Positions 4,894 to 58,494 of a stretch of DNA of 64,000 nucleotides are shown here, piece after piece. Every line of letters begins with the position of its first letter. Position 1 is the stretch's first letter. The stretch is from Octopus vulgaris (Eukaryota). The stretch is taken from the NCBI GenBank assembly GCA_951406725.2, contig OX597829.1, positions 34,844,001 through 34,908,000 of the forward strand, in the 5' to 3' direction. A model generated the notes under the pieces. The model had not been told where the DNA came from and did not search any database. It was given only the letters and a program-made list of their open reading frames with translations. Position numbers and translations under genes: made by a program.

Positions 4894-5356
4894 CTGCAAA
4901 TAGATAGAGATATAGATAAATATGTGTAGATGTATATATATGAAATACACTCACAGATACACTCACATGCACATATGTATGTATGAAGCACAGATCAAAT
5001 ATATGAAACAAAAACACTTTGAACAACCCTTCTTCCTCTTCACAAGCATACATAGACATTGGTCTAGCTTCAACCCTATTCACCACCAAGTAACATAGAA
5101 ACATTCTTTGTCATAAATCTTCAACACTCAGTCTCTAATACCTCTATAATGTTCACATTACACTCTATATTCTAACTTTATTCAGAAATATATATGCATG
5201 CTATAAAATCCATTCATTGCATTTTATCTCTTTTACCTGAAGTTCATCAACAACAAAGTCTTTTTATGATCAACTTCTGATTCCTCTACTCTGATGCCTC
5301 TATCACTCTCCAAACACTATCAGCTATTTGATCATCTCAGTTTCTGTACATCAAAC

Positions 5357-5620
5357 ATCATCATCATCGTTTAACGTCCGTTTTCCATGCTAGCATGGGT
5401 TGGACGGTTCAACTGGGGTCTGGAAAGCCAGCAGGCTGCACCAGGCTCCAGTCTGATCTGGCAGTGTTTCTACAGCTGGATGCCCTTCCTAACGCCAACC
5501 ACTCTGTGAGTGTAGTGGGTGCTTTTTACGTGCCACCGACACAGGTGCCAGGCGAGGCTGGCAATGGCCACGATCGGTTGGTGCTTTTTACGTGCCACCG
5601 GCACTGATATCACAACTACA
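5357..5620 (-). mobile_element. RTE LINE 3'-end fragment
   Basis: Reverse complement of the 3' end at 32300-32560, with (GAT)n tail. Confidence 0.85.
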
Positions 5621-5714
5621 TCTTATATAAAGCCATCATCTTAACTAACTTTTTGTATACTACTCCTCTAGGCTTTTATACTTATCCCACACTGATTCTG
5701 CAAAATATATATAT

Positions 5715-6008
5715 GTTTCAGTCATGGGACTACGGCCATGCTGGAGCACTGATTTAAGGAATTTTCGTCGAACAAATCAATCCCAGCACTTGTTTTTTAA
5801 AGGTAGGTACTTGTTCTGTTGGGAACGTAAACACACTCACACTGGTAGTCAAGCAGTGTTTAAGGATCAAACACAGACACAGAGGCACATACACACACAC
5901 ATACACACACACACACACTCACACACACACACATAACGAGTTTCAGTTTCTGTCTACCAAATAAGACTTTGGTCGACCGAGGCTATAGTGGAAAATACTT
6001 GCTCAAGT
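5715..6008 (-). mobile_element. Degraded tRNA-derived SINE
   Basis: Similar to 36409-36812 (tail tgtttcagtca..ggccatgctggagcac; gaggctatagt). Confidence 0.7.
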
Positions 6009-6536
6009 ATACTATCATTAATACTGGTAACTTTTAAAGCTTATATCATACCTCTTAGTTTATAATTAATATATAGTTTGCATATTCTATGGTCTCAATA
6101 TTCCTGTAGTTAATACCAGGTATCAGTCTTTATAGATACCACCTAAGTCCAAATCATCCCCCAACACCTAACTTATCTACACCAGTTCACAGCCATGACA
6201 GACACACTAACACTAAATATGCATAATCTTTTTTCTTACCTAGAAACCTATCCCTAACCAGCCGTCATTGACTCTGTACCTACTGGATTAAGTGATCTCC
6301 AACCAAGAAAAAATCACAATACAGTCTCCTAAATATAAAATATACTTACTATTCAATATTCAAGTACTTTAAATTAAGTAAATGGTGGGAGTTCTGACAA
6401 ATGTAAGTAACAATAGCACCACCAACAGAAACAGCAACAATGACTCAAACAATCAAATCAAAACTGACAATGGCACCACCAACACAAATAGTAGGTATTA
6501 AAATAGAAAAATGAAAAGAATGAGTCAGTCTCTCAC

Positions 6537-8375
6537 CTTTCTATGTCCTTCGTATGCAGCCATGTGTAAAGGAGTCCACCCAGCATTATCTTTATGCATT
6601 TCATCCAGTCCTCGCTCCAGTAGAAGCCCCACAACATCTGCATCACCTTGGGCAGCAGCCACGCTCAGCACAGTGCGTCCTTCCCCGTCAATGGCATCAA
6701 CTGCAGCATTCCAGTAAAGCAACTGACGAACCACACCTGCATGGCCAGCTGCTGCAGCTGCTAGCAGTGGTGTACGTCCAGCTGTGTCGGCAGCATCAAC
6801 GTCTGCATCCCATTCTAAAAGCAGCTCACATGCTTCTTCGCGACCCTCATGAGCAGCTACCAGCAAAGGAGTGGCACCATCAAGGTCTCTGTGGTCAACA
6901 AATGCACCCCGGGCAAGCAGCAATGCTACGACTGCATCATGGTTTTGATGCTGGTATTGCTGTTGCTGTTGCTCTTCTTGTGCCATGCCATTGCTGATGG
7001 CAGCAGAGGAAACGTTCTGGGGTGGGTAACTTTGATCATGTCCTTGCTGTTGGCTGAATGCACTTGCTCGTCCTTCCTTTTGTCTCTCTAGTTTGCTTAT
7101 ATCATCCACTATTTCTCCCTCTGTGCCAAGATCATTGTCATTGACAGTGGGGTATTTCTTTTTCCCCCTTGTTCCTGCCTCTAAACCACCCCTTGTACCA
7201 TCATCATTGTCTTCATCATCATCCCGAATATTTACATTCCCAAGCTGAGTATCAAATTCACACTCATCGGCATCCTGGTTGACTGTTCCAGGAGAAACGA
7301 ATGCAACAAAACCTGTGCCACAAAGTGAAGCAGCCACAGAGAGGGCAGTTCGGCCATCAGCATCTTCATGGTCTACAGATGCACCAACATCAAGGAGATG
7401 TTCTACAATGGAAGCATGTCCCATGTATGCAGCAGCAATGAGAGCAGTTCGTCCCTCGCTGTCGCAGCGGTTCACATCAGCATGATGTGCAAGGAGACAA
7501 CGGACAGCAGATTCTCGGCCACCCCATGCAGCAGCACGTAATGCTGTTCTTCCACCAGCATCACAACGGTCAACCTGGGCACCAGCAGCTAATAAAGCTT
7601 CAACAACACCAGTGTGGCCACCCCAGGCAGCAGAACGGAGAGGTGTCCAGCCATCATTATCAGCTGCATCAGTGAGCTCTGGAGCTTGAGGTGAACCCAG
7701 AAGCACTTCCACCACTGCCAGATGTCCCTGACGGGCAGCTATATTTAGTGCAGTCTGGCCGTAAACATCTGAAATGCAAGGATTGGCTCCTAGGGCAAGT
7801 AGTTCAACAGTAGCTTTAGCATCTCCACGTGCCGAGCATTCATGCAGCATGGCAGAAAGGTCTGCAGCTTCATTTTCTGCATCAGTTGTCCCTATACTTT
7901 CCATCGCTTCACCACTGCTGCGAAGTTGGCGAAGTCTCTCCAGAGTTGCATTCAGCCGATGCTCGTATATGAAATCTTCTTCAGCATCATTATTTGCAAG
8001 GGAGATGGGATCATCTTCTACTTTTGCTTCGTCTTCTATATCACAAGGTACATTGACATTGGTGGCAGTGGTGGGACTAATATTGGTGCAGGCGAGGTTG
8101 TTTTTGCTATCGCTGACACCACTGAAACCATCATCATCAACATCATCATTATCATCATTGTTGTTGTTGTTGTCACGATTACGAATGGATGATATAATCG
8201 GGGTTGCTAAGGTGGGTGATTGGGAAGTTGGTGCCACTGTGCTAGGTATTTCATCTAGGACAACACTGTGAGGAGAGCTTTCACTTTGGCTGTGAGGTGA
8301 CATGCTTACATTACTGGAGCGATGGTGCTTGTGATCATGGTTGTTGGTGGAGTTGTTTGATACAGGTTTTTCATA
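6537..8375 (-). CDS. ANKRD50: ANKRD50-like, second coding exon (ankyrin repeats)
   Basis: Acceptor ttttctttttcag|TAT at 8375; donor AAG|GTGAG after 6537; phase 0/0. Contains [26 protein letters not shown] and [13 protein letters not shown]. Confidence 0.92.
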
Positions 8376-8534
8376 CTGAAAAAGAAAAGAGAATATTGCA
8401 GGAGTGTGCACACTTATATACCATTGTTCTCTGTCTGTCTGTCTGTATGTATGTATGTATGTACATATGGAGAATCTTTGGATCTCATCTATGAACTATA
8501 TACATACACACACACACACATATATATATGCATA

Positions 8535-8603
<69 letters not shown>

Positions 8604-8636
8604 AATAAGACATATATCAGAAAAGAAGCGGTACTG

Positions 8637-9020
8637 GATATTAACAGTTATCACCAAGCTAATATGGCAGTCCAGAAATATAGGACGAATGCTGCTGCCG
8701 ATTAGCTCCAAAAGGCTATCGCCTCTAGCTAGCTATGTGACTCATGAACCTGTGTCCACTGAATTTAGGTAAATAATCCTTCAAACAGATGGTCGGTAGC
8801 GATGCTTGCTGGGTTCGGCCGCTCTGCATTGATAAGGGGTAAATACCCTGAAACTAGTCTGCAGATACCTGACCAGCAAGGGGAAGTGGCTGACCTCCCC
8901 TGTTCAAATGTTTGTGTGTCACATAGCTAGCTAGAGGTGATGGCCTCTTGGAGCTAATCAACGGCAGCATTTGTCCTATATTTCTGGACTGCCATATTAG
9001 CTTGGCAATAACTATTAATA
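8637..9020. repeat. Fold-back element, ~110-bp inverted arms, degenerate hammerhead motif in the spacer
   Basis: Arm ccaagctaatatggcagtccagaaatataggac..ctctagctagctatgtgac is mirrored at 8915-9020; (TA)n nearby on both sides. Confidence 0.8.
8824..8864 (+). ncRNA. Degenerate hammerhead ribozyme motif
   Basis: ctgca-TTGATAA-ggggtaaataccc-tGAAAC-ta-GTC-tgcag: stems I and II pair; two substitutions in the core. Confidence 0.5.
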
Positions 9021-9769
9021 TTATATATATATAATTAATTAATTATCTGTAGGGTTCATTAGAATCAAGGTATTTTAATATTAAGAACACTAAGTAAGGG
9101 ATGAGATCTTCACATCTGTGTATATACCATATATAAACATGCTTGCATATACCCATGCATATATGGACATATTCATACACTTACATATACTTGTATATGA
9201 ACACATCAATATACACAAACATATAGATATACATGTACATTAAATTATATACCCATGCATACCAACATGCTGTTTCATGATCCAATGTAAGTTCCAGATT
9301 GAACATGAAGAAGGTTCCGGGTGAAGTGTTTACACAAAGAAAGAGCATAGATGAATTAAAGATTCACTACAGCTCTTTCAGACGTATTTTTTTTATTGAT
9401 GAATAATTTGATTACATCATGAAAAAAAAAACGTTTTCTTCTGGTGAATTAAAATATAAAATTTGGTTCAGAGAAAAAATATTAAGATGTGGAATATAAA
9501 CTGACTCTCTCATTTTGGCATCAACAAAGAAAATGAAAACACATTGAGGTTTAGCCAGATTTCATAGGCCTATGGTTGATAAAGCAATCAATGGACAGTG
9601 TCACATTAAATAATTTCTTTAAATAGATGGTCAGAGATAAGAGATAAGAGGAAGACAGAGAGAAAGAAATAGGGAGGAGGAGAAAGTAAGAGAGGCTAGA
9701 TTAAGGGTTATCAGCATAGTGTAGTCAAGACACATTTCCTGATGTTGAAAGAGAAATTACTGCTAACCT

Positions 9770-10410
9770 ATAGACCATCAAACAAGAACATTTATGATAA
9801 CATGTACTTATATTCACTCATACAATTCAAAGCATCCAGAAGATTCAGCAGGGCTTTGGCAATGATGCCATGGGAAACATTCAGATAAAGGAGTTGTACA
9901 GCTGTTTCAAACATGGCTGTGCTTCATTGAAGAGTGAGGCTCATTCAGACAGGCCATCCACAAGCCCAAACGAGGATGTGATTGAGAAGGTTCAGCAAAT
10001 AGTCATGGAAGACTGTCACATAACAACCCAAGAAACTGCTCATAAAGTGAGAATAAGCACTCAGTCAGTGTGTTCCATTTCAATGGAGAATTTGTGTATG
10101 CAGAGGGTGCTGGACTGTGCAAAACCATGATCCAGACTTCATGAAGACTATCATCATTGGTGATGAGACATGGATTTATGGTCTCTGGTCAATGGGTTCA
10201 GTCATCTTGCATGTAAACAAAAATCTGATGAGCATGCACAACACATCTGTGCTCTAGGTGTAACTGTTGGGAACTGAGGTGGCCTACTGGCACAAAAATT
10301 TTCATGCATGTGTAGGAAGGGTGGCATCACCTTCCATCCAAAGGACTTTGCCTCACGGCATTAGTTTTGGCAGGTAAAAATAAAGTCAAATACTTTTTGA
10401 ATGCACCTCA
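9770..10410 (+). mobile_element. Mariner relic, internally deleted
   Basis: HTH remnant FKHGCASLKSEAHSDRPSTS, IIIGDETWIYG motif, TIR-like end ...tactttttgaatgcacctcata. Confidence 0.7.
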
Positions 10411-10419
10411 TATATATGT

Positions 10420-10636
10420 ACCCTTGTTTTGACATCATGTAATGATTGTAAATGTAAATCACCTTAATACAAGCATTGTTGTTTGCTTTCATATTTCTGT
10501 AGAAAAATATGTTTGGTCATGGTAAAAGGTGAGGGTTCGTGACAGGGAGGACATCGAGTTTTAGAAAAATTTACTTCAACAAATTCAATCTGATCCATGA
10601 AAGCATTGGAAAGTAGACATTAAATGATGATGATAA
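10420..10636 (+). mobile_element. Degraded SINE with an RTE-like 3' tail
   Basis: Ends ..ccatgaaagcattggaaagtagacattaaatgatgatgat, resembling the RTE 3' end. Confidence 0.5.
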
Positions 10637-10644
10637 TATTTTTT

Positions 10645-11732
10645 ATTCTTTTACTTGTTTCAGTCATTTGACTGGGGCCTTGATGAGGCACCACCTTGAA
10701 GGGTTTTAGCTGAATGAATTGATGTCAGTACTTATCTGGTACTTATCCTATCAGTCCCTTGCTGAACCAGTAGGTTTCAGAGACATAAACAAACCAATAT
10801 CAATTGTCAAGCAACTGTGGGGGACAAACACAAATAAAAACACACACATCGGTATGTATATATATATATATATATATATCATTGTCGTCATCATCATCGT
10901 TTAACATTTGCTTTCTATGCTGGCATAGGTTGGATGGTTTGACTGAGAACTGATAAAACAGGAGGCTGCATTAGGCTCCAATCTGATTTGGCAAAGTTTC
11001 TACAGCTAGATGATCTTCCTAATGCCAACCACTCTGAGAGTATAGTGGATGCTTTTATGTGCCACCAGTAGAGAAGCCAGTTAGGCAGCACTGGCATCGA
11101 CCATACTCAAAATGGTGCTTTTTACATCCCACTGTCACAAGTGCCAGTCAGGTGGCACTGGCATTACCCACACTCAAATGATGCGTTTTACATGTCACTG
11201 GCATAGGTGCCAGTCAGGCAGCACTGGTGTCGGTCATGCTCATATGGTACATTTTACATGCCACCAGCATGGGTGCAAGTCACTCAGTTCAACAGATCTT
11301 CACAAGCACAGCATATTGCCCAACGATTAAAGGGTGCTTTTTCAAATGGGCCAGTTATGCGACACTGGCATTGGCCATAACTACAGTCTCATTTGACATG
11401 CTGGGTCTGCTCAAGCATGGCATATCTCCAAAGGTGTTGGTCACTTGTCATTGCCTTACAATTCTACACACACACACACATACACACACACACACACACA
11501 CATATATACATATACATTTATATATACATGCACATACACATACATATATATAAATACATACACACACAAACACACATATATAATGGGTTTCTTTCAGTTT
11601 CCTTCTACTAAATCCACTCACAAGGCTGGACATTTAGTAGAAGACACTTGCCTAAGGTGCCTTGCAGTGAGGCTGAACTCAAAACCATGTGATTGGAAAG
11701 TTAACTTCTTACCACATAGCCACACCTGTGCT
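10645..11732 (-). mobile_element. tRNA-derived SINE split by an RTE 3' fragment (about 10880-11455) in its internal (TA)n
   Basis: SINE tail half at 10645-10860 and head half at 11465-11732 flank an RTE 3' UTR piece starting with (CAT)n. Confidence 0.75.
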
Positions 11733-11857
11733 TATATATATATATATATGTAGTTTTTATTTTATAATTTTAAAAAGTTTGTAAACCAAAAAATAATTAG
11801 CTTTGAAAACAATGTAAAAGTAGTTGGAATCTAATATACAATTTATAAGCAAATATT

Positions 11858-12039
11858 GATTTCAAATTTTGGCACAAGGCCAAACAATTTTGGGGTGGGT
11901 ATAAATCAATTACATCAACCCCAAAAGATGAAATGCAATGTTGACCTTGGCAAAATTTGAACTCAGAATGTGAAGACAGGTGAAATGTTACTAAGCATTT
12001 TAGTTAGTGTGCTAATGATTCTACCAGCTGATTGCCTTG
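11858..12039 (-). mobile_element. Second tRNA-derived SINE family, degraded
   Basis: Minus strand reads agctggtagaatcattagc (A box) ... gagttcaaat (B box) ... aaggtcaac. Confidence 0.55.
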
Positions 12040-12215
12040 TTATAAGCAAATATTATAAACAATTTACAACAAATTGAAAAGGACAAGAAGAAGAGAAGGA
12101 AAACAAGATGGTATTGAATATGAAATAACAACAGATCTTCAAGTTCAAAGAGAGGAATGTTACACATAAAGGGACTGCCTCATACATAAGTATGGAAATG
12201 AAAATTTTTGCTTAC

Positions 12216-30682: not shown

Positions 30683-32560
30683 GGGTCCACCAGGGTTCAG
30701 TACTCAGCCCCCTCCTATTTATCATAGTACTCCAGGCAATTACGGAGGAATTCAAGACAGGCTGTCCCTGGGAGCTCCTCTACGCTGACGACCTTCCTCT
30801 TATTGCTGAGTCACTATCAGAACTGGAGGAGAAGTTCCAGGTGTGGAAGGAGGGTTTAGAATCAAGGGGCCTTAGAGTCAACCTAGCTAAAACCAAAGTA
30901 CTAATAAGTAGGAAGGTAGACAATCCACAAATGTCTTCAGGAAGATGGCCCTGTTCGATCTGTAGAAAAGATGTAGGTAGAAACTCTATAAGATGTACCC
31001 AGTGTAAGCTATGGACACATAAGAGGTGCAGCAATGTCAAAGGTAGGCTAACTGGGAAGATAGTTTTTGTATGTGGCAGATGCTCGGGAGCATTAACCTC
31101 CGAAAATCTGCAGAAAACAACTTCCGTCACTTTCCAGGGGGAAAAACTAGAAGTAGTTGATAGCTTCCGTTATCTAGGTGACCAAGTCAGTAGTGGGGGT
31201 GGGTGCGCTGAAAGTGTAACTGCTAGAATAAGAATAGCCTGGGCGAAGTTTAGGGAGCTCTTACCTCTGCTGGTGACTAAAGGCCTCTCGCTCAGAGTAA
31301 AAGGCAGACTGTATGATGCGTGTGTACGAACAGCCATGCTACATGGCAGAAAAACATGGGCCGTGACTGCTGAGGACATGCGTAAGCTCGTGAGGAATGA
31401 AGCCAGTATGCTCCAATGGATGTGTAATGTCAGTGTACATACTTGACAGAGCGTTAGCACCTTGAGAGAAATGTTGTACCTAAGAAGCATCAGTTGTGGT
31501 GTGCAAGAGAGACGATTGCGCTGGTATGGTCATGTGGCGAGAATGGATGAAGATAGGTGTGTGAGAAAGTGCCAATCCCTAGCAGTTGAGGGAACCCGTG
31601 GAAGAGGTAGACCCAGGAAAACCTGGGACGAGGTGGTGAAGCACGACCTTCGAACTTTAGGCCTCACTGAGGAAATGACCAGCGACCGAGACCTTTGGAA
31701 ATATTCTGTACGTGAGAAGACCAGGCAGGACAAGTGAGCCCAGCCCACTTATGAATGCCTTTTCTCCCTTGGACACAAAGACCTGTTGAGGCAAGCGAAG
31801 TCGATATAGAACCTCATCCGATGACAGACACCCATGCCAAGCCCCCATGCTTGCGAAGACATGTTGGGGCAAGCGAAATCGAAATCGAAACCGAGTTGAA
31901 CCAGCCAGGATCCCTGGCCTGGTGGTACGTAAAAAGCACTATCCGACTCGTGGCCGTGGCACGTAAAATACTCCAATGCGACCGTATGACAGGCACCCAT
32001 GCCAACCCCCTTTGCTTGTGAAGACATGTTGGGGCAAGCGAAATCGAAATCGAATTGAACCAGCCAGGATCCCTGGTCTGGTGGTACGTAAAAAGCACTA
32101 TCCGACTCGTGGCCGTGGCACGTAAAATACTCCAATGCGACCGTACGACAGGCACCCATGCCAACCCCCTTTGCTTGTGAAGACATGTTGGGGCAAGCGA
32201 AATCGAAATCGAATTGAACCAGCCAGGATCCCTGGTCTGGTGGTACGTAAAAAGCACTATCCGACCCGTGGCCGATGCCAGCACCGCCTCGACTGGCTTC
32301 CGTGCCGGTGGCACATAAAATACACCAATCTGACCGTGGCCGTTGCCAGCCTCGCCTGGCACCTGTGCAGGTGGCACGTAAAAAGCACCCACTACACTCA
32401 CGGAGTGGTTGGCGTTAGGAAGGGCATCCAGCTGTAGAAACATTGCCAGATTAGACTGGAGCCTGGTGCAGCCTCCTGGTTTCCCAGAACCCCGGTCGAA
32501 CCGTCCAACCCATGCTAGCATGGAGAACGGACGTTAAACGATGATGATGATGATGATGAT
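30678..32560 (+). mobile_element. RTE LINE, 5'-truncated: RT C-terminal half with PHD-like insert, repeat-rich 3' UTR, (GAT)n tail
   Basis: GVHQGSVLSPLLF, LLYADDL, GLRVNLAKTKVL, FRYLG, RRLRWYGHVARM, RGRGRPRKTW. One premature stop at 31444; starts in a (TA)n tract. Confidence 0.95.
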
Positions 32561-33144: not shown

Positions 33145-33225
33145 TCTCGACATATGTTTCGAAGACTGCATATTCATAATTTCAAAGGAATAAGGGGTGC
33201 ATTATGCTGCCTTCTCATCAGGAAA
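33145..33225 (-). ncRNA. Type-I hammerhead ribozyme (Penelope-like minimal form)
   Basis: tttc-CTGATGA-gaaggcagcata...tatgcagtcttc-GAAAC-atat-GTC-gaga: intact core, G-C closed stem II, palindromic stem III, GUC triplet. Confidence 0.85.
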
Positions 33226-38390: not shown

Positions 38391-40661
38391 AAAGTCTTTC
38401 TAGCTACCCACCTCATGCATAAGTTATCCAGGACTACGCTCTCCAATGTGCTCTTTTTTTTTTTAAAGACAATGTGTGATTTGAGGGAGATTTGGCTACT
38501 GCTTCTAACAGGTCAAGCAACCACAAAGATGCTCCTTTGTTGCCTTGAGCAGTTGATGTGGTGAGAGCAGTGATTACTTCATTATCCATAAGGTTTATGC
38601 TTATGATTTTGATCAAACTCCAAAGGGTTTTAGTTTTTAGATTATTCTATTGATTTTTTTGTGCGTCTGATGGAAGGAAAGGGGCCAAAATCATGAGCTG
38701 GATGAAACAAAGATATGTATTTTTCACTTAAAAAACATGGTCTTTTTTTTTTTTTTTTTGCTGAATTTCAAGAAATGTTCGACAACAGTGTTTGCCTAAT
38801 ATGTTGAGACCGATATTAATATGGGGTGTAGTATTAGCATTATTATTGTTTAAATCTAGTTAATTCCTCTAAATAGTGTTTTAGAATTTACCCTGTGCTT
38901 TACGTATGATTTAAATGTTTGCCAAATTTTGGGGCGTTTTTAAGTTTATTTTCTTGTTTAATTGTATAATAGCGGTGGGTTATATATATCTACTGAGCAT
39001 GGTATAAGTTAATCCCTAGTTTAAATCAGGCTGGATAGTTCTGTTGTGTGTGGAGGATCTATACTTTTTATGTAGTTCTGGGATATTTTAGGATATTTCA
39101 GTAATAAATGTTTACATTGGGAATTGCGGTGTAGTTGAATTCTGCATATTTTGATGTTGTTTCCTAATTTTTTTTTTAAGGTTTGTTGTGTTGCTAAGCA
39201 TCAAGTGAATTTTTATTAAGTGAACCTATAATTAAATGCAGGCTAACCATAGCCACCCACCCTTTTTAAAGATTACATCATCAAATGTGTCCTCTATTTT
39301 ACACTGTAGGGAACGGGGTGGGGTGGAGTGGGTTGAAGATTTGTCTGCTATTTCTAGCAGGCCGAACGACCATATACAGGTTCTCTCGTTGCTCGCTCTG
39401 TGAGGCTACTTTTGTTTCAGCCACAAAAGAAAGGAAATAATTGAAGAAATGACAAGAAAATTTAAACAAAATATATATCACACTTTCTTTATAGGCATTT
39501 GTGTCTTGCATTTCGAGAGATTATATAAAAATTTGCATTAATATTTCCCTCATTTACATATCTAGCTTTGAAAAACAAGTTGTGTATAAAATGTTGTTGA
39601 AGCATTGTTTCTTTGTTCATTTAATACAATGTAATATTATAGAACTTCTACGAAATTTCAGCTGGCCTTTTGTTCCATTATACACGGCTTTCTTTAGCTT
39701 TTCAGTTAAATATATTGTTTAGGGCGTGGATGAAATTTTCTCACGATCCTAAGTTACATGTAAAAATCAATTGGCCTGTTTAATTTGGCACTGGCTGGTT
39801 GAATTTATAATTGTTTAAAGCTAGATTACAAAGAACAGATGTTTCTTTGTTTCCTTTTCTCTCAGACTAGAATAATATTTATTTGATTAAAATACAATGG
39901 CTCGTCCGATAGCGATTGATTCGTTTCTTGCATATGCATTATATACTAAAGTTCATATGTCGATTAGCTCTACAGGTTGGATGATTCAGTATATATGAAA
40001 ACTGACTCATCCCTTGGTCGTCTTCTTTCATTGATTAACCGAAAGAAAAAGATGTACAGTAGCCGACAATTATTTCGGCGAATATCCTAACGACTCCAAT
40101 CTCTACCATAAAGTAATTGTGTAGAGTGTGTGTGTGTGTGTGTGCGTGTATATATATATATATATACGCACACACACACACAAATACATACATACATACA
40201 TAGACACACATACACATGCATGAATAAACGCACATACACACGTGTGGGTAGGCGGAATATGACCAAATGATTAAGTTTGATGGTCTCGAACCCATTATGT
40301 GGGGATTTTGGGCGAATATCATTTTCTGTAACTACAGGTCAAAAGAAAATGTAGAAAAACCCGTCGAGTGCGCGCTGTACTTGTAATTTTAAAAAAATGG
40401 TACAGCCCGTGTCAGACTGATCCTGCCTGAGAATTACGTCAAGAAGACACGTGTCTGTAGAATGCTTATGTTAATTCAGGAGCAGATAATTCAGTTGATC
40501 GAACAATTGACGTGTGTGTTTGTACACAAACATGCATACATGCATATATGCATGCATGCATACGTTAAAGTACAAGTGAGGATATATAAACCTCAAGGGA
40601 ATAGAAATATCCATGATTAGACTGGTTGAATACCTAATAATATGGGCACACACATTATTTT

Positions 40662-40778
40662 TATAAAAACCAAGAGAAAGGATGGAGATAAGATTGATAA
40701 AAATTTATTAATACATAGACAAGACATGCAATTAAATTTTTATTAATCTTACATCTATCTTCTCTCTCGGTTTTTACA
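40662..40778. repeat. Short fold-back element, same family as 42467-42985
   Basis: Inverted arms aaaaaccaagagaaaggatggagataagattgataaaaattta / taaattttattaatcttacatctatcttctctctcggttttt. The upstream flank 40597-40655 resembles 42068-42128. Confidence 0.65.
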
Positions 40779-40804
40779 CATATATGTGTGTGTGTGTGTA
40801 CACA

Positions 40805-41108: not shown

Positions 41109-41160
41109 GTCTTACAGCTGTTTCCAGGATATTTATTACTTATATCCCTTCATCAGAGAC
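41109..41160 (-). ncRNA. Type-I minimal hammerhead ribozyme
   Basis: gtct-CTGATGA-agggatat(aagtaataa)atatcctg-GAAAC-agct-GTA-agac: perfect stem I, stem II, palindromic stem III. Confidence 0.85.
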
Positions 41161-41393: not shown

Positions 41394-41428
41394 GTTTCTG
41401 AAGAAGAGCTTTGCTCGAAACGTTAAAC
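41394..41428 (+). ncRNA. Ultra-minimal hammerhead motif in a ~190-bp element (about 41340-41530)
   Basis: gttt-CTGAAGA-a-gagc(ttt)gctc-GAAAC-GTT-aaac. Confidence 0.65.
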
Positions 41429-41967: not shown

Positions 41968-42129
41968 TTTTTTTTCATTATTATTATTGAGAGAGCAGTG
42001 CATGCCATCAAAGTGACACTGGGGTAAAATATACGAAGCCCAGTATACCCATCATGACTACCTCAGAGGGATAGAAGTATCCAACATTACTCTGGTTGAA
42101 TACCTTATAATATAGGCACACATATTCTT

Positions 42130-42453
42130 TTATTCTTTTACTTGTTTCAGCCATTTGACTGTGGCCATGCTGGAGCACTGCCTTTAGTCGAGCAAATCAA
42201 CCCCAAGACTTATTCTTTGTAAACCTAGTACTCGTTCTATCAAGTTCTTTTGCTGAACCACTAAGTTACGGAGATGTAAACATGCCAGCATTGGTTGTCG
42301 AACAATGTTGGGGGAGACAAACACACACACATATATATACAACAGGCTTCTTTCAGTTTCTGCCTACCAAATCCACTCAGAAGGCTTTGGCCAGCCTGAG
42401 GCTATGGTCAGCTTGACACTTGCCCAAGGTGCCACGTGGTGGAACTGAACCCA
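42130..42453 (-). mobile_element. tRNA-derived SINE, head truncated
   Basis: Same family as 36409-36812. Confidence 0.85.
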
Positions 42454-42466
42454 AATATATTATTAT

Positions 42467-42978
42467 TATAAAAATGAAGAGAGATGGCGATAAGATTAAT
42501 AAAAATTTATCAAAAGATTGATAAGACCTACAATTGTTTCAATTCCTCACTTATAGCATAAAATCAATCAAATTTAATTTAATTAGATCAATTTGATTAA
42601 TTATTATAAGCCAGAATATCATCAGGGAAGAACGTACAAAGAAATTTATATATAACATATTGAAAACATTAAATAAACAAACAAGAAAAATACAGTGTAC
42701 CCATTAAAATTAATACATAATATAACTGTATATATTTTAAAATTATGTATTAATTTTAATGGTACACTGTATTTTTCCTGTTTGCTTATTTAATGTTTTT
42801 CATTTTGTTTTCAATATGTTATATATAAATTTCGTTGTATGTTCTTCCCTGATGATATTTTGATTTAATTAAATTAAATTTAATTAATTTTATGCTTTAA
42901 GCAATGAATTGGAATAATTGTAGGTTTTGTCAATGTATTAATAAATTCTTAATTATATTATCTCCATCTTCTCTCTTG

Positions 42979-42985
<7 letters not shown>
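42467..42985. repeat. ~520-bp imperfect palindrome with hammerhead motifs in its arms
   Basis: Arms of ~250 bp (e.g. atatcatcagggaagaac / gttcttccctgatgatat; tacagtgtacc / ggtacactgta). Minus strand 42627-42527 reads cc-CTGATGA-long stem II-GAAAC-aatt-GTA-gg. Confidence 0.85.
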
Positions 42986-43040
<55 letters not shown>

Positions 43041-43109
43041 ATAGATAGATAAATAGATAGATAATACATATATGTGTATAAATATATATATATATATATA
43101 TAGACTATA

Positions 43110-43176
43110 CTTTATTTAAAGCAGCAGAAAATTCAACAAACAAAATTTGTTGAATTTTCTGCTGCTTTAAATAAAG
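43110..43176. repeat. Perfect 31-bp inverted repeat with 5-nt loop
   Basis: ctttatttaaagcagcagaaaattcaacaaa-caaaa-tttgttgaattttctgctgctttaaataaag. Confidence 0.95.
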
Positions 43177-43291
43177 CATATTACTCTACCACTGGTATTT
43201 GAGTACTCTTTTTTTCCACCTTGTTTCACATTTATGTGTTTACTCCGGTATATATAAACTATAGATAGATTATATATATGTGTGTGTGTAT

Positions 43292-43590: not shown

Positions 43591-43625
43591 GTTTAACGTT
43601 TCGAGCGGAGCTCTTCATCGGAAAC
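43591..43625 (-). ncRNA. Hammerhead motif variant, same family as 41394
   Basis: gttt-CCGATGA-a-gagc(tcc)gctc-GAAAC-GTT-aaac. Confidence 0.6.
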
Positions 43626-47202: not shown

Positions 47203-47304
<102 letters not shown>

Positions 47305-47361
47305 TTTATAAAAAAACATTAAAATCTGAAAGAAGCACACTCTAAGATGTAGAGCAGTATA

Positions 47362-47698
47362 TATTAAAAATGGGGAAGGCAAGTTAATGGGATTACTTTA
47401 GATTTCCTGTCCATAAAGGGTTTGATTTTTAATGGTGTATTTTCAGATCCCAAAAACCTGTTGGCCCAGGAGCTCTTAAAAAAAAAAAACAGGTGCGGGG
47501 GGGGGGGATGCTTCACTGCACAAAGGCAACAATTGGAGATAATAACCAATTGTTACCTTTGAGTAGTGAGGCATTTCCTCCTCCATATATTTAACAGGTC
47601 ATGGGCCAACAGGTTTTTGGGATCTGATGAAATGCCACAAACCTAAACTCTTTATGGATGGGAAACCTAAGATAATCCCATAAACCAGCCTTCCTTAG

Positions 47699-47705
<7 letters not shown>
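47362..47705. repeat. Fold-back element, ~110-bp arms each with a hammerhead-like motif
   Basis: tcagatcccaaaaacctgttggccca / tgggccaacaggtttttgggatctga. 47619-47679 reads gggat-CTGATGA...GAAAC-ctaag-ATA-atccc. Confidence 0.8.
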
Positions 47706-48492: not shown

Positions 48493-50476
48493 TCATCATC
48501 ATCATCATCATAATTTAATGTCGTTTTCCAGTTCGACCGGGCTCTGGGAAGCCAGGAGGCTGCACCCGGCTCCAGTCTGACCTGGCAGTGTTTCTACAGC
48601 TTGATGCCTTTCCTAACGCCAACCACTCCGTGAGTGTAGTGGCTGCTTCTTACATGCCACTGGCACAGGTGCCAGGGGAGGCTGGGAATAGTCACGATTG
48701 GTTGGTGTTTTTTACGTGCCACCAGCACGGAAGCCAGTCAAAGCAGCGCTGGCATCGGCCACGTATGGATGGGGCTTTTTACGTGCCACCGGCACAGGTG
48801 CCAGGGCAGGCTGGCAACAGCCACAATCAGTTGGTGCTTTTTACATGCCACCGGCACAGGTGCCAGGGCAGGCTGGCAACAGCCACAATCGGTTGGTGCT
48901 TTTTACGTGCCAGGGCAGGCTGGCAACAGTCACAACTGGTTGGTGCTTTTTATGTGCCAGGGCAGGCTGGCAACAGTCACAACTGGTTGGTGCTTTTTAC
49001 GTGCCACTGGCATGGAAGCCAATCAAGATGGCGCTGGCATCAGCCATGTACGGATGGTGCATTTTACATGCCACCGGCACAGGTATCACAACTACAATCT
49101 CCATTTGATTTTTGATGTTGATGGTGATGTACTACAAGCACAGCAGGTCGCCCTACGATACAAGGTAAGTACAGCAGACCGTCCTGCGATCCAAGGCACT
49201 TTGGAAGGGCTGGGGCTTCTATGTGAAGCTGGTGCAGGAAACAGCCATGAACTCACATTATTTGTCGGGTCTTTGCAGTCACAGCATATCTCCAGAGGTT
49301 TTGGTCTTTCGTCATTGCCTCTGTGAGGCCCAGTGTTCAAAGGTTATGCTTGACCACCTCATCCCATGTCTTCCTGGGTCTACCTCTACCCTGGATTCCT
49401 TCAACTGTTTGAGAGTGGCACTTCTTCACACATCTCTCTTCATCCATCCATAGAACATGACGTTACCAGTGCAGATGTCTCTCTTGCATACCACATCCAG
49501 TGCTTCTTATATCCAGCATTTCTCTCAGGGCACTTGCACTCTGTTGTGTATGCACACTGACATTACACATCCATTGGATCATGCTAGCTTCATTTCTTTC
49601 AAGCCTACACATGTCCTCTGCAGTCACAGCCCATGAAGTTGGCAGTTCGCGCACATCGTCGCACAATCTACCTTTCACTTTGAGTGAGAGACCCTTTGTC
49701 ACCAGTAGGGGTAGGATCTTTCTAAACTTTGCCCAGGCTATTCTTATTCTAGTGGTAACACTCTCTGAGCATCAACCCCCACTACTAACTTGGTCACATA
49801 GGTAGCAGAAACTATCAACTACTTCTAGTTTCTCCCCCAGGAGTGTAATGAAATCTGTTTTCTGAGTATCAATGGTGTCTATTGCCCCTGTGCATCTGCT
49901 GCACACGAAAGCTATCTTCTCGGTTAATTTTCCTTTGATGGTGCTGCACGTCTTATGTGTCCATAGTTTACACTGGGTACGTCTCATGGAGTTTCTACCT
50001 ACACCTTTTCTACAGATCGAGCAGGGTATATATATTACATATATACCTGAAGGGGTGTGTGGTGTGTTTGACTTCCTACTTTCTAGAACTTTGGTCTTTA
50101 CTATATTGACTCTAAGGCCTTTTGATTCTAAACCTAGCTTCCACACCTGAAATTTCTTTTCTAGTTCTGGTAATGATTCTGCTATGGGGGCCAGGTCATC
50201 AGCATAGAGGAGCTCCAAGGGGCAACCTGTCTTGAATTTCTCTGTTATTGCCTGGAGGGCTATGATGAATAAAAGGTGACTGAGGGCTGAACCTTGGTGG
50301 ACCCCTACATCTACCCAGAATTCTTCACTGTACTCATTGCCAATCCTAACCTTGCTGATGGCCTCTCTGTAAAGGGCCTGTACAGCCTTTATTAACCATC
50401 TCCAGTTTCCGCATTGCCCACCGGATAAGGGATTGGGGGACCCTGTCAAAGGCTTTCTCCAAGTCCATGAAAGCTA
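48493..50476 (-). mobile_element. RTE LINE, 5'-truncated, with PHD-like insert and expanded 3' UTR subrepeats
   Basis: AFMDLEKAFDRVP, GVHQGSALS, LLYADDL, CSICRKGVG..QCKLWTHKTC..CSRC, (GAT)n tail. Confidence 0.92.
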
Positions 50477-50835
50477 TGTATATATAGCACGATAGCTATA
50501 AATATATGGCTTAAGTCACATGTATTGCATGTATTAACCATTTGTCAATCTCCAGTTTCCGCATCGCCCACCAGATAAGGGATCAGGGGACCCTGTCAAA
50601 GGCTTTCTCCAAGTCCATGAAAGCTATGTATATATAGCACGATAGCTATAAATATATGGCTTAAGTCACATGTATTGCATGTATTAACCATTCGTCAATC
50701 TCCAGTTTCCGCATCGCGCACCAGATAAGGGATCGGGGGACCCTGTCAAAGGCTTTCTCCAAGTCCATGAAAGCTATGTATATATAGTACGAAAGCTATA
50801 GATATATAGTTTAAGTCACATGTATTGCATGTATT
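50391..50835. repeat. Tandem triplication, ~150-bp unit
   Basis: attaacca at 50391, 50533 and 50683; each unit contains gaccctgtcaaaggctttctccaagtccatgaaagctatgtatatatag. Confidence 0.92.
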
Positions 50836-55444: not shown

Positions 55445-55680
55445 GTAGTACTCTGCATCTGATGAAATTATGAGAGGATGATTTACAATGAGTTTGTTCT
55501 GGACAGTCAAACCATGGATGCCAACTTGTACTCTGAACAGCAAATATACCTGACATTGGTTAACAGAAAGTGAGCAGCAGCACAATGCAAGACCTCATAC
55601 TGTTTGAACAACCCAGAATATACTCCAGGAACTTGAGGGAATTAAAATGATGTCAAACGCAACATATAATCTAGACTTAA
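55445..55680 (+). mobile_element. Mariner transposase mid-domain relic
   Basis: QTMDANLYSEQ, HNARPHT, LQELEGI..YNLDL (YSPDL-like). Confidence 0.55.
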
Positions 55681-55983
55681 GTATTTAATTTTCTCAGAAT
55701 ATCTGGCCCTAGCAAATGCTACATTGTAGTAATCTGTATATGAGTTAAATATCATTTCATTTACTGAAAGTCTAGATATATGATTGAATATATTGTTTAT
55801 AATTCCTTTTATAATAGAGGGCGAGTGCTTATATTTTTTATTGATATACCCTAGATTTTTGCTTGGTTTATGGTATGGTTTAGATAATCTGGTATCCAGA
55901 CTAAATGTTACATCAAGGAAATTTATCTTATGGTAATTATTTTCAATAGTAATAGTCCAAAATTTTCGAAGAATTTACTGGTT

Positions 55984-56177
55984 TACTCTTTTACTTGTTT
56001 CAGTCAGTTGACTGTGACCATGCTGGAGCACAGCCTTTAATTGAGCAAATCAACCTCAGGACTTATTCTTTGTAAGCCTAGTACTTATTCTATCAGTCTC
56101 TTTTGCCGAACCGCTAAGTTACGGGGACATAAACACACCACCATCAGTTGTCATGCGATGTTGGGCGAACAAATTCA

Positions 56178-56233
<56 letters not shown>

Positions 56234-56383
56234 CATACATATATACATATATATGATGGGCTTAAGGCTTTGGTCGGCCCGAGGCTATAGTAGAAGACTT
56301 GGCCAAGGTGCCACGCAGTGGGACTGAACCCGGAACCATGTGGTTCGTAAGCAAGCTACTTACCACACGGCCACTCCTATGCC
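55984..56383 (-). mobile_element. tRNA-derived SINE
   Basis: Reverse complement of the 36409-36812 family. Confidence 0.9.
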
Positions 56384-56499
56384 TAATTATTTCTTATATT
56401 TCTCCATTTCTACTTTGCTACATTTGTCTAATATGAAGAGAGCATCATCCAAATTTAGATTGCCCCCACCCCACCTCACCCACTCAACTTAGGAAACCG

Positions 56500-56830
56500 G
56501 GATTCCATCTAGAATAGGATATATATCAACAAGATCAGTTACTTGCACTGAGTCACCTGAATCCATTGTCATGTTGAAACAGTCAACTCTATCAGATTGG
56601 CTGCAGATTATTACCAAAATTTATTAGAATATTACAAGTAGCTAGTATTATATCAAGACCCGACCTAGATAAATCAGAATTGTGCATAGCAAAAATGAGA
56701 TCCATATTAAGTAGTACTGGATTAATAGTAGAAGAACAAATCAATATGTCAAGTATAAATTTACTATTATTTTCCTTCTGTAATCTTTTGAACCATCCAA
56801 TAATCTCAAGTGTGTCTGACCCCATTTCTT
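56500..56830 (-). pseudogene. Penelope-like element RT relic
   Basis: EIIGWFKRL..KFILDI..STINPVLL and FNMTMDSGDSVQVTDLVDIYIL resemble the PLE RT motifs FIQxDIxxFYPSI and FDVTMGSxDGAEVCELVGLYIL (recalled). Confidence 0.6.
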
Positions 56831-57225: not shown

Positions 57226-57293
<68 letters not shown>

Positions 57294-57294
57294 A

Positions 57295-57496
57295 GTAGTT
57301 AAGTCTATGTCTGGTCATAGAGTGACCAATGGTTTTGCAACAACAAAAGTCTTAGCCCCATGGATGACTGGTCAGACACTAAAGCTGAAGACAAATGTAA
57401 TTCTTCCTTTAGAGTCTGACAAGATGTCCATGGCACTAAGCCCTTTGTGGATGCAAAACCATTTGTCACTCTATGACCAGACGTAGACTTAACTAC
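57295..57496. repeat. Fold-back element with degenerate hammerhead motif (57411-57472)
   Basis: gtagttaagtctatgtctggtcatagagtgac / gtcactctatgaccagacgtagacttaactac; agagt-CTGACAA...AAAAC-cattt-GTC-actct. Confidence 0.75.
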
Positions 57497-58494
57497 ATTA
57501 CTACTTTAGAGTGAGCTTCTTTTTTTTTTGGATATATGATACATTGACTTGCACTTGTTAAAAATTTCCTTGTATCTTCCATAATAAGCAGGAAATGTAA
57601 TACCCTCCACTAGGTTATATGTAAACTCAGAAAGTGTAAACAAGCTTCCTGGATTTTCAGACTTTGCCAACTATAACTCAATTAATTGTTGTTGTAGTAT
57701 TTGTTTTTGCAATTCCTGTAGCTTCTCTTGAAGCTGTACTACTGCAGCTAATAGGGTTTCTATGATGCAGAAATTGTCAAATAACTAATGTGAGTTTTGA
57801 ATGATCTTTATCACCAGATGTTATATCCTTATGGATAAACGAATACACTGCAACACTGTAATAACAATATAATTGAAACAAACAGCACATGGAACTAATA
57901 ATCTAACAGACGCCATGATAGATCGTTAGCTACTACACACATTTTTTTCTCTCCTTGTTTTTTCTGTGTACCTTTCTGTAGAAGAGCATAGGCTCAAAAC
58001 GTAAAAGACTTTTTCTATTCCTGAGCACTATACATCTGTTTGTTTGTACACCACCGGCCTTTGTCTTTTGTTTATTTTCGTAAACTTTCCCTTTAATAAT
58101 CTAGCATGCTAAATCGAGCTGTAAACTTTGAAATCCAACTTTGAACTATCAACATATGAACTGTGGAACTAGCACGAACTACCTCACTTACTCAGACCGC
58201 TACTATTTATATGTAATGGTCCAGTCCACTCTCACCAGGGGGTGTCATACTCTTGCACAACAGAGACTAAATTACTAAATATTCAAAAATAAGTACTGGG
58301 ATCAATTTGTTTGACTAAGCCCTTCAAGCTGGTGCCTTTGCATGGCCAGAACCCAATGACTCCAATGACTGAAACAAGTAAAATGAAAAAGAAAGATATT
58401 TGTATGTATGTATGTTGGTAGCTGGGTACATAGAGGAATAAAAGATAGGCAGAGGGAGCTAAATCAAGAGAAAAAAAAGAGGGTAATCAACCAG

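What the first reader, a model, noticed from the sequence alone, without database searches (positions are those of the whole stretch)
42467..42985. Fold-back elements placing a hammerhead on both strands
Seen: a 520-bp palindrome with a complete hammerhead motif in one arm and a decayed one in the other. The same design, with unrelated sequence, occurs at 47362-47705 and 57295-57496; 8637-9020 has the motif in its spacer. All lie next to (TA)n or (TG)n tracts. Inference: these are inverted pseudo-LTR products of Penelope-type insertion rather than true MITEs. Transcripts would form long dsRNA hairpins (ADAR/Dicer substrates) competing with the ribozyme fold.
Basis: partly seen in the sequence, partly recalled or inferred. 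Interest (0 to 1): 0.7.

Follow-up and report, generated by a model that had tools for sequence, protein, structure and literature searches.

The report
Back-to-back Penelope retrotransposon ends
The palindrome is real, but it is an old, decayed pair of back-to-back 3' ends of a common Penelope-like jumping gene that carries a hammerhead ribozyme motif, a known kind of insertion, and its one-long-end, one-short-end pattern suggests that both cut DNA strands likely copied the same RNA from two fixed start points.

Summary
The 42467-42985 palindrome is real (arms 88% alike). The left arm holds an intact Penelope-type minimal hammerhead motif on the minus strand; the right arm's motif is decayed. 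It is not a MITE. Most family copies have one orientation only, the fold-back point varies, and longer copies run upstream into a decayed RT/GIY-YIG gene of the Hydra clade of Penelope-like elements. The element really starts at about 42060: a SINE splits its tail. The other three palindromes belong to three unrelated hammerhead families (one clearly, one weakly tied to an endonuclease gene; one a 361-nt tandem unit). Across five families, 44 of 46 fold-backs with readable ends pair one tailed with one tail-less end; in two the arms share no sequence. That favours priming on both cut strands over hairpin self-priming (inferred). Head-to-head inverted Penelope ends with opposite-strand hammerheads are published, and this scan reached the same reading on other pieces of this genome. 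Folding predicts the hairpin buries the ribozyme; expression and editing could not be tested. Side find: a young Hydra family with an intact 955-aa ORF makes multi-kb, over 99.5% matched palindromes.

The parts
42060..42140 (-). Remnant of the family's 3' tail belonging to the left (long-ended) arm; cut off from the arm by a SINE and cut short at its far end
   Evidence: BLAST of family reference positions 442-523, 87%
42141..42455 (.). Later SINE insertion that splits the tail (the name OK/OR-type octopus SINE is recalled, not from a call)
   Evidence: Repeated elsewhere in the window (I13/I15); very high contig depth
42467..42725 (-). Left arm: 5'-truncated pLTR copy, 3' end pointing outward, 94% to family consensus
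42529..42625 (-). Intact minimal type I hammerhead motif: CUGAUGA core, 78-nt stem II region with U.U at its base, GAAA, 8-nt self-complementary helix III, UA cleavage site, 2-bp stem I
   Evidence: 4 hits against 0.017 in shuffles; fold
42721..42725 (.). Head-to-head junction with 5 nt shared by both arms; the right arm reaches about 18 nt further 5' in the family sequence
   Evidence: read from the sequence
42721..42982 (+). Right arm: 5'-truncated pLTR copy ending at the short (tail-less) end, 91% to consensus; decayed hammerhead at 42849-42922
42982..43102 (.). (TA)n tract, likely the insertion target
40565..40793 (.). Second, shorter fold-back of the same family (long end left, short end right)
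   Evidence: (L115)
47303..47705 (.). Family B fold-back (tailed end left, short end right); longer copies encode the C-terminus of a PLE GIY-YIG endonuclease on the hammerhead's strand
57291..57545 (.). Family C fold-back (short end left, tailed end right); hammerhead cores decayed at CpG
8627..9021 (.). Family D fold-back of a 361-nt tandem unit with a U3-A8 hammerhead variant in the unpaired middle; the left arm carries only 11 nt of tail

Best explanation
The palindrome is two 5'-truncated copies of the hammerhead-bearing 3' end (pLTR) of a decayed Hydra-clade Penelope-like retrotransposon, joined head-to-head, and it was likely made in one insertion in which both nicked strands of a (TA)n target primed reverse transcription on the same uncleaved element RNA at two fixed internal sites. 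Shown: family membership, linkage to an RT/GIY-YIG ORF, a variable centre, two fixed outer ends, and near-strict pairing of one long with one short end. Inferred: the endonuclease cuts both strands; each 3' OH starts cDNA at one of the two sites (60-180 nt apart, which gives the tail); both cDNAs stop early and are joined through 0-9 nt of shared sequence. The ribozyme likely serves only the parent element. In the fold-back it is predicted to be buried in a 250-bp duplex and has no same-strand partner for the dimer that this motif type needs, so the locus is most likely inert debris.
For: Family and gene: 57 matches from 40 scored of 177 candidates. Four long copies (L151, L152, L153, L157) carry linker or endonuclease remnants about 2.5-4 kb upstream on the hammerhead's strand. 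L191 joins the endonuclease remnant, the 3' UTR and the start of the pLTR reference; L192, 75% identical in DNA over the linker/EN part, carries the RT. Hydra marks (DKT, RWR, CxCX5C, CxxC, CxH, no CCHH) are in the intact relative L188 (criteria from PMC8557442 section 11); Atlas neighbours carry GIY-YIG, RVT_1 and HTH_animal. Ends: of 59 two-orientation loci in families A-D, 36 are long/short, 2 short/short, 0 long/long and 21 have an unreadable end. Of 10 fold-backs among 13 young-family loci, 8 are readable and all are long/short. 44 of 46 gives p = 1.5e-11 against 50%; single-orientation loci of family A split 17 long, 17 short, 3 broken. Arms are not copies of each other: no shared sequence in L108 and L067, and the arm reaching further 5' is the short one in 4 and the long one in 4 of 8 young loci. 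Arms of one young locus differ by 0.04-0.45%, as a rule less than from other loci (0.2-12%), so they come from one source. Young junctions show 0-9 nt of overlap or a 1-nt gap. In vitro, a Poseidon-clade PLE cuts and extends both strands, starts at two internal RNA sites that match the tail, and uses uncleaved RNA (PMC11167929). Folding: -227.5 kcal/mol as a hairpin against -160.3 with the hammerhead helices enforced.
Against: No biochemistry for Hydra elements; the two-site model is carried over from another clade, and that paper saw no strand bias in start site and does not discuss inversions in the parts read. PMC3846280 explains head-to-head copies by self-priming on an antisense template. 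Loci are top BLAST hits, the young pairs were hand-picked, 21 of 59 ends were unreadable, and a short end can also arise by later loss of the tail. The tail start is itself microsatellite-like and breaks often, so tail-only arms are weaker evidence than they look, and one query enriched for them. At young locus C6 the inverted arm is closer to another locus (0.21%) than to its own downstream unit (0.35%). No listed short-read contig spans the focal centre junction. No full-length family A copy was found; the ORF link is a chain of decayed, interrupted copies.
Confidence: 0.72

Rival explanations
1. Same Penelope-like origin, but the inversion arises by self-priming: a cDNA or an antisense RNA folds back and is copied into a hairpin, which is then cut with a stagger and inserted.
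For: Proposed for rotifer Penelope elements from palindromes at the junction (PMC3846280). A staggered cut of a hairpin would also leave one long and one short end. Arms within young loci are nearly identical, and several junctions are almost symmetric (focal element, L031, L042, C1a).
Against: A hairpin copy must lie inside its template and should give a fixed polarity. Two loci have arms with no shared sequence (L108, L067) and three overlap by under 20 nt (L012, L099, L104). Polarity is mixed: short arm further 5' in 12 of 14 family A loci, long arm in 6 of 8 family B loci, 4 and 4 in the young family (read by eye).
Confidence: 0.18
2. Two separate insertions of the same family landed back to back, or a single insertion was later duplicated and inverted by DNA repair.
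For: These families target (TA)n and often sit beside one another; the focal tail is split by later insertions.
Against: No microsatellite at the centre; ends are paired long/short; arms of a young locus are each other's nearest relatives in most cases; one 10-12-nt TSD frames a whole fold-back (L087); flanks are not duplicated.
Confidence: 0.05
3. A self-spreading fold-back DNA transposon (MITE) or a selected RNA switch in which the hairpin controls the ribozyme.
For: Fixed outer ends, a TA target and a strong predicted hairpin.
Against: The centre varies, most copies have one orientation, the two ends differ, and the family leads into an RT gene. The arms have drifted apart about as far as independent decay predicts (12% apart; 6% and 9% from consensus), with no sign of preserved pairing.
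Confidence: 0.03
4. Assembly artefact from fold-back chimeric long reads.
For: Such artefacts exist (general knowledge); young-family arms are over 99.5% alike.
Against: Focal arms differ by 12% plus indels; short-read contigs of two runs match the SINE/left-arm boundary without a mismatch (records 3 and 9); the two ends and both flanks differ.
Confidence: 0.02

Closest known systems
Hydra clade of C-terminal EN+ Penelope-like elements (Craig et al. 2021, PMC8557442), including Hydra-1_Obim
   Same: RT followed by GIY-YIG without CCHH; DKT, RW(K/R), CxCX5C, CxxC and CxH motifs; hammerhead near the 3' end; (TA)n target; inverted 5'-truncated copy at the 5' end with a tail often on one end only.
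   Different: Families here are longer (young unit 5.6 kb, 955 aa, Asn-rich inserts; published ones mostly under 3 kb). Tails are about 50-180 nt against 30-40 nt. Stem II is very long (78 nt in A). The Hydra-1_Obim hammerhead in the supplement differs in sequence from families A-D, and that entry is listed as having no pLTR.
Minimal PLE hammerheads (Cervera and de la Pena 2014, PMC4209133)
   Same: Type I motif, extra nucleotide after A9, short stem I (2 bp as in D. virilis), palindromic helix III, U3-A8 variant, and pairs of motifs 100-700 bp apart on opposite strands, attributed to truncated PLEs.
   Different: No G10.1-C11.1 pair in family A (U.U instead, as described for an axolotl motif in PMC7229834); much longer stem II; cleavage not tested here.
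Inverted pLTR insertions of Adineta vaga Penelope elements (PMC3846280) and D. virilis Penelope (PMC2377424)
   Same: Head-to-head inverted repeats of variable size, one TSD round the unit, tail on one of the inverted ends.
   Different: That work favours self-priming on an antisense template; the copies here include non-overlapping arms that this cannot make.
Non-LTR retrozymes (PMC7229834; bioRxiv 10.64898/2026.07.22.740005)
   Same: Family D (8627-9021) is a 361-nt non-coding head-to-tail unit with a type I hammerhead.
   Different: D carries a minimal U3-A8 motif, occurs as short partial tandems and follows the PLE long/short end rule; circular RNA not tested. The focal family A is not of this kind.
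L1 twin priming (Ostertag and Kazazian 2001; recalled, not read)
   Same: Both target strands prime on one RNA and give an inversion joined by microhomology.
   Different: In L1 the second primer anneals at a variable internal point and the arms hardly overlap; here both starts are fixed near the 3' end and the arms usually overlap, giving a palindrome.

Membership tests
EN+ Penelope-like element (family A, focal) | pLTR linked to an ORF with RT and C-terminal GIY-YIG endonuclease | tested here: met
   Linker/EN remnants upstream on the same strand in L151, L152, L153, L157, L191; RT in L192; all decayed. Pfam itself gave no hit on the fragments or on the intact relative.
EN+ Penelope-like element (family A, focal) | Type I hammerhead in the pLTR, sense to the ORF | tested here: met
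   (CTGATGA the commonest core, 19 of 73 loosely matched sites; GAAA in 27 of the second-half matches)
EN+ Penelope-like element (family A, focal) | 5' truncation, inverted 5'-truncated copy, optional tail on one end | tested here: met
EN+ Penelope-like element (family A, focal) | Partial-tandem (direct pLTR) full-length copies | tested here: inconclusive
   Seen in 4 of 13 young-family loci; no full-length family A copy found
Hydra clade | No CCHH in the EN; CxCX5C linker; DKT and RWK motifs; CxxC and CxH flanking E/N | tested here: met
   Present in the intact young-family ORF (RWR for RWK); family A remnants align to it at 31-61%
Hydra clade | Insertion into (TA)n | tested here: met
   All 16 readable young-family fold-back ends abut (TA)n; 32 of 42 crudely placed ends in A-D abut a simple repeat against 19% background (some of these positions were tail starts)
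Hydra clade | Placement in the RT phylogeny | not tested
   Reference proteins were seen only as text in the supplement; no tree was built
Neptune/Nematis clades | CCHH motif with two cysteines between GIY and YIG | tested here: not met
   One cysteine only between the two motifs in the intact ORF; criterion
MITE / fold-back DNA transposon | Same terminal inverted repeats and fixed internal structure in all copies | tested here: not met
   37 of 67 family A loci have one orientation; centre and arm lengths vary; the two ends differ
MITE / fold-back DNA transposon | Constant TSD | tested here: inconclusive
   Mostly unreadable inside (TA)n; one 10-12-nt TSD among 21 resolved of 29 loci examined
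Active hammerhead ribozyme | Self-cleavage | not testable with these tools
   Fold predicted disfavoured: -13.8 against -20.1 kcal/mol alone, and by 67 kcal/mol in the full element
Non-LTR retrozyme (family D only) | Short non-coding head-to-tail units, each with a type I hammerhead | tested here: met
   361-nt monomer; head-to-tail joins in 8 of 20 loci; no ORF hit in D loci
Non-LTR retrozyme (family D only) | Circular RNA expression | not testable with these tools
   No raw RNA reads were offered

The most novel reading that the evidence does not exclude
Hydra-clade Penelope elements insert by obligate two-site twin priming: one enzyme dimer uses each of two fixed RNA start sites exactly once, one per DNA strand, so insertion routinely builds its own palindrome. 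A still-active family is filling this genome with multi-kb, near-perfect fold-backs that are a major source of the long dsRNA behind octopus hyper-editing.
Probability: 0.25. Interest if true: 0.65.

Novelty: new member of a known kind. Interest (0 to 1): 0.3.

Why it matters
The locus itself is ordinary retrotransposon debris. Its value is as a data point on how Penelope-like elements make their inverted ends, which the papers read leave open (self-priming was proposed; the in vitro study explains the tail but not the inversion in the parts read). The long/short rule and the non-overlapping arms give a testable prediction, and the intact young ORF offers a Hydra-clade enzyme to test it with. 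If such fold-backs are transcribed they need no partner repeat to form dsRNA. PMC5625713 reports that octopus has an exceptionally high share of dsRNA-forming loci and that Penelope is a heavily edited repeat in lizard.

Tried and rejected
Rfam scan of the window: no hammerhead model among 111 matches, mostly microsatellite hits to miRNA models. First descriptor demanding a pair at 10.1-11.1 missed the focal motif. One search was meant to reach upstream but used the tail by my orientation error; it gave tail-bearing copies, and one search repeated the search correctly. The RT gene beside locus L004 lies on the opposite strand and did not match long family A copies, so it was rejected as the parent. 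My first clade call, Neptune, was dropped after reading the Hydra criteria. Pfam and PDB gave nothing for the intact ORF. No RNA holder was listed for the focal stretch; two guessed-RNA contig sets gave almost no cover of the palindrome; neither is evidence on expression or editing. Expression and editing of the young family remain untested. TSD search was mostly defeated by (TA)n flanks; 8 of 29 loci were unresolved and several ends were misplaced. 5' truncation points do not visibly cluster at the ribozyme cleavage site (one family A arm, L108, starts there). Paper searches for a twin-priming account of Penelope inversions returned only PMC3846280 and PMC11167929 as relevant; searches on octopus Penelope palindromes returned no description. 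Subscription papers such as Arkhipova 2006 and Lunse 2017 (recalled) were not searched; preprint supplements were closed and only one PMC supplement was read.

Full report
Setting. The window lies on contig C16 of G000, a 2.8-Gb genome in 227 contigs. It is rich in microsatellites, SINEs and LINE fragments. 'Octopus' is my recall from the repeat types and is also the word used in earlier notes. An ankyrin/TANC-like gene lies on the minus strand at 2785-22490. Whether the focal element, 20 kb upstream of its large exon, is inside its transcript is unknown.

Observation. The palindrome is real. Its arms meet at 42721-42725 and are 87.8% alike over 230 columns, each 94% and 91% like the family consensus. 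The left arm carries, on the minus strand, a complete type I hammerhead motif from 42625 to 42529: CUGAUGA, a 78-nt stem II region with a U.U mismatch at its base, GAAA, an 8-nt self-complementary helix III, UA, and a 2-bp stem I. A descriptor for such motifs finds 4 in the window against a mean of 0.017 in 60 shuffles; it was relaxed after a stricter one missed this motif. Rfam does not see it. The right arm has lost GAAA, a helix III pair and 23 nt of stem II. The other three palindromes exist. At 47362 the better motif has one helix III mismatch; at 57295 both cores have decayed at CpG (family counts: CTGACAA 5, CTGATGA 3, CTGACGA 2 of 18); at 8637 the motif is a U3-A8 core variant held by 20 of 22 family motifs.

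Family A. The arm has 177 first-look candidates; 40 were scored, giving 57 matches. With two more searches I held 90 loci, 67 after removing 23 duplicates. Of these, 37 have one orientation and 30 have both; the centre varies from locus to locus. Every 3' end falls at one of two places, about 60 and 174 nt past the predicted cleavage site. Walking upstream leads through a long AT-rich 3' UTR to remnants of a PLE linker and GIY-YIG endonuclease on the hammerhead's strand in L151, L152, L153 and L157. L191 joins these to the pLTR start, and L192 (75% DNA identity over that part) has the RT. All are decayed and interrupted.

A young relative. A protein search with the family A linker (150 scored of 8568 candidates) found a family at 42-44% identity with long open frames, often as neighbouring opposite-strand pairs. 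I fetched 13 loci: 8 such pairs and 5 long frames. L188 holds an intact 955-aa ORF with DKT, RWR, YRDD, CxCX5C, CxxC and CxH and no CCHH, the marks of the Hydra clade in PMC8557442 section 11. Atlas neighbours at 0.96-0.98 carry GIY-YIG, RVT_1 and HTH_animal; Pfam and PDB gave nothing. Its pLTR has a hammerhead of the same build. Ten of the 13 loci are head-to-head fold-backs, up to about 12 kb including tandem units. All 8 with two readable ends have one end at the short site and one at the long site 178 nt further on, both in (TA)n; centres are scattered and joined with 0-9 nt of overlap or a 1-nt gap. Arms within a locus differ by 0.04-0.45%, loci by 0.2-12%; locus C6 is an exception, where the inverted arm is closer to another locus.

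Families B, C, D. They had 1507, 632 and 2590 candidates; 20 loci each were fetched. B runs into an endonuclease C-terminus on the hammerhead's strand in at least 8 loci. C has one such hit upstream (L057). D is a 361-nt head-to-tail unit with no ORF hit.

The end rule. Of 59 two-orientation loci in A-D, 36 are long/short, 2 short/short (one is the window's D element, with 11 nt of tail), none long/long, and 21 have an unreadable end. With the young family, 44 of 46 are discordant (p = 1.5e-11 against 50%), while single-orientation A loci split 17 long and 17 short. The arm that reaches further 5' is not fixed: short in 12 of 14 A loci (one complex locus left out), long in 6 of 8 B loci, 4 and 4 in the young family (read by eye). 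In L108 and L067 the arms share no sequence. One fold-back outside a microsatellite (L087) is framed by a 10-12-nt duplication. The sample is top BLAST hits and hand-picked pairs, not a random draw.

Mechanism. Shown: the structure above. From the literature: a Poseidon PLE protein cuts and extends both strands of AT-rich DNA, starts reverse transcription at two internal RNA sites whose spacing equals the genomic tail, is predicted to be a dimer, and uses uncleaved RNA (PMC11167929, parts 1-2 of 4 read). Inferred: each strand primes at one of the two sites on the same RNA, both cDNAs stop early, and they are joined by microhomology. This gives outward-pointing 3' ends, one tail and a variable centre. 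The published rival, self-priming on an antisense template (PMC3846280, passages), can give one long and one short end if a hairpin is cut with a stagger, but not non-overlapping arms or mixed polarity. I put 0.72 on two-site priming and about 0.95 on the Penelope origin.

The ribozyme and the hairpin. PLE minimal hammerheads are thought to work as dimers and cleave poorly in vitro (PMC4209133, parts 1-2 of 4). A transcript through the fold-back holds one sense motif and its antisense copy. The predicted hairpin is -227.5 kcal/mol; enforcing the hammerhead helices gives -160.3, and the CUGAUGA core is predicted fully paired. The arms have drifted apart about as expected for independent decay, so nothing suggests selection on pairing. 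No RNA run was listed as holding the stretch; contigs of two runs match the SINE/left-arm boundary exactly, but none listed spans the centre. Editing and small RNAs are untested.

What is known. Inverted 5'-truncated copies and a tail often on one end (PMC8557442, passages, section 11 and supplement search); head-to-head units with one TSD (PMC3846280); inverted repeats of variable size in D. virilis (PMC2377424, passages); minimal hammerheads 100-700 bp apart on opposite strands and the U3-A8 variant (PMC4209133); a U.U base of stem II and tandem retrozymes (PMC7229834, passages; bioRxiv 10.64898/2026.07.22.740005, part 1 of 5); heavy editing of Penelope in lizard and a high dsRNA share in octopus (PMC5625713, passages). 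I found no paper stating two-site priming for these inversions, which cover open-access text only. Earlier agents of this scan reached the same reading, including the long/short pairing, on other pieces of this genome; none near this place. Their notes are not independent support, but they sent me to the Hydra criteria.

Verdict. Observation confirmed, interpretation supported in its main point, new member of a known kind, interest 0.3. The boldest reading left open (obligate two-site priming by an active Hydra family that feeds octopus dsRNA editing) has probability 0.25 and would rate 0.65.

Noticed in passing
L188:2414-7760 and L179-L187 (G000 C2, C8, C5, C1, C32, C4, C6): Young Hydra-clade family with an intact 955-aa ORF, Asn-rich inserts, a 2.5-kb 3' UTR and a long-stem hammerhead; copies form multi-kb fold-backs with arms over 99.5% alike, which suggests recent or current activity.
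   Followed up: partly
window 40565-40793: Second fold-back of family A, 1.3 kb from the focal one, long end left and short end right.
   Followed up: yes
window 8627-9021; L071-L090: Family D is a 361-nt head-to-tail non-coding unit with a U3-A8 hammerhead variant, retrozyme-like, that follows the PLE end rule.
   Followed up: partly
window 41113-41156 (-), 41398-41424 (+), 33149-33221 (-), 43595-43621 (-), 57976-58003 (+): Further PLE-type hammerhead motifs from other families; 43106-43180 is a 75-bp palindrome at the start of one such element in the same (TA)n tract as the focal element.
   Followed up: no
window 2785-22490 (-): Ankyrin-repeat / TANC-like P-loop gene with a 3436-aa open frame full of low-complexity inserts, far longer than usual for this kind of protein (ANKRD50-like start is recalled).
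   Followed up: partly
window 55678-56771 (-): Decayed PLE reverse transcriptase fragments (41-42% to the young ORF), about 500 nt from the family C palindrome; link not tested.
   Followed up: no
L004:1-888 (-): RT gene of another PLE clade (KGG-type motif) directly beside a family A copy, in the opposite orientation.
   Followed up: partly
L030, L106, L113, L114, L120 (G000 C26): One family A fold-back present in five near-identical copies on one contig, apparently a segmental duplication; counted once.
   Followed up: no
window 31821-32274, 48644-49006, 50398-50835: Tandem arrays of 159, 47-62 and 150 nt inside other repeats.
   Followed up: no
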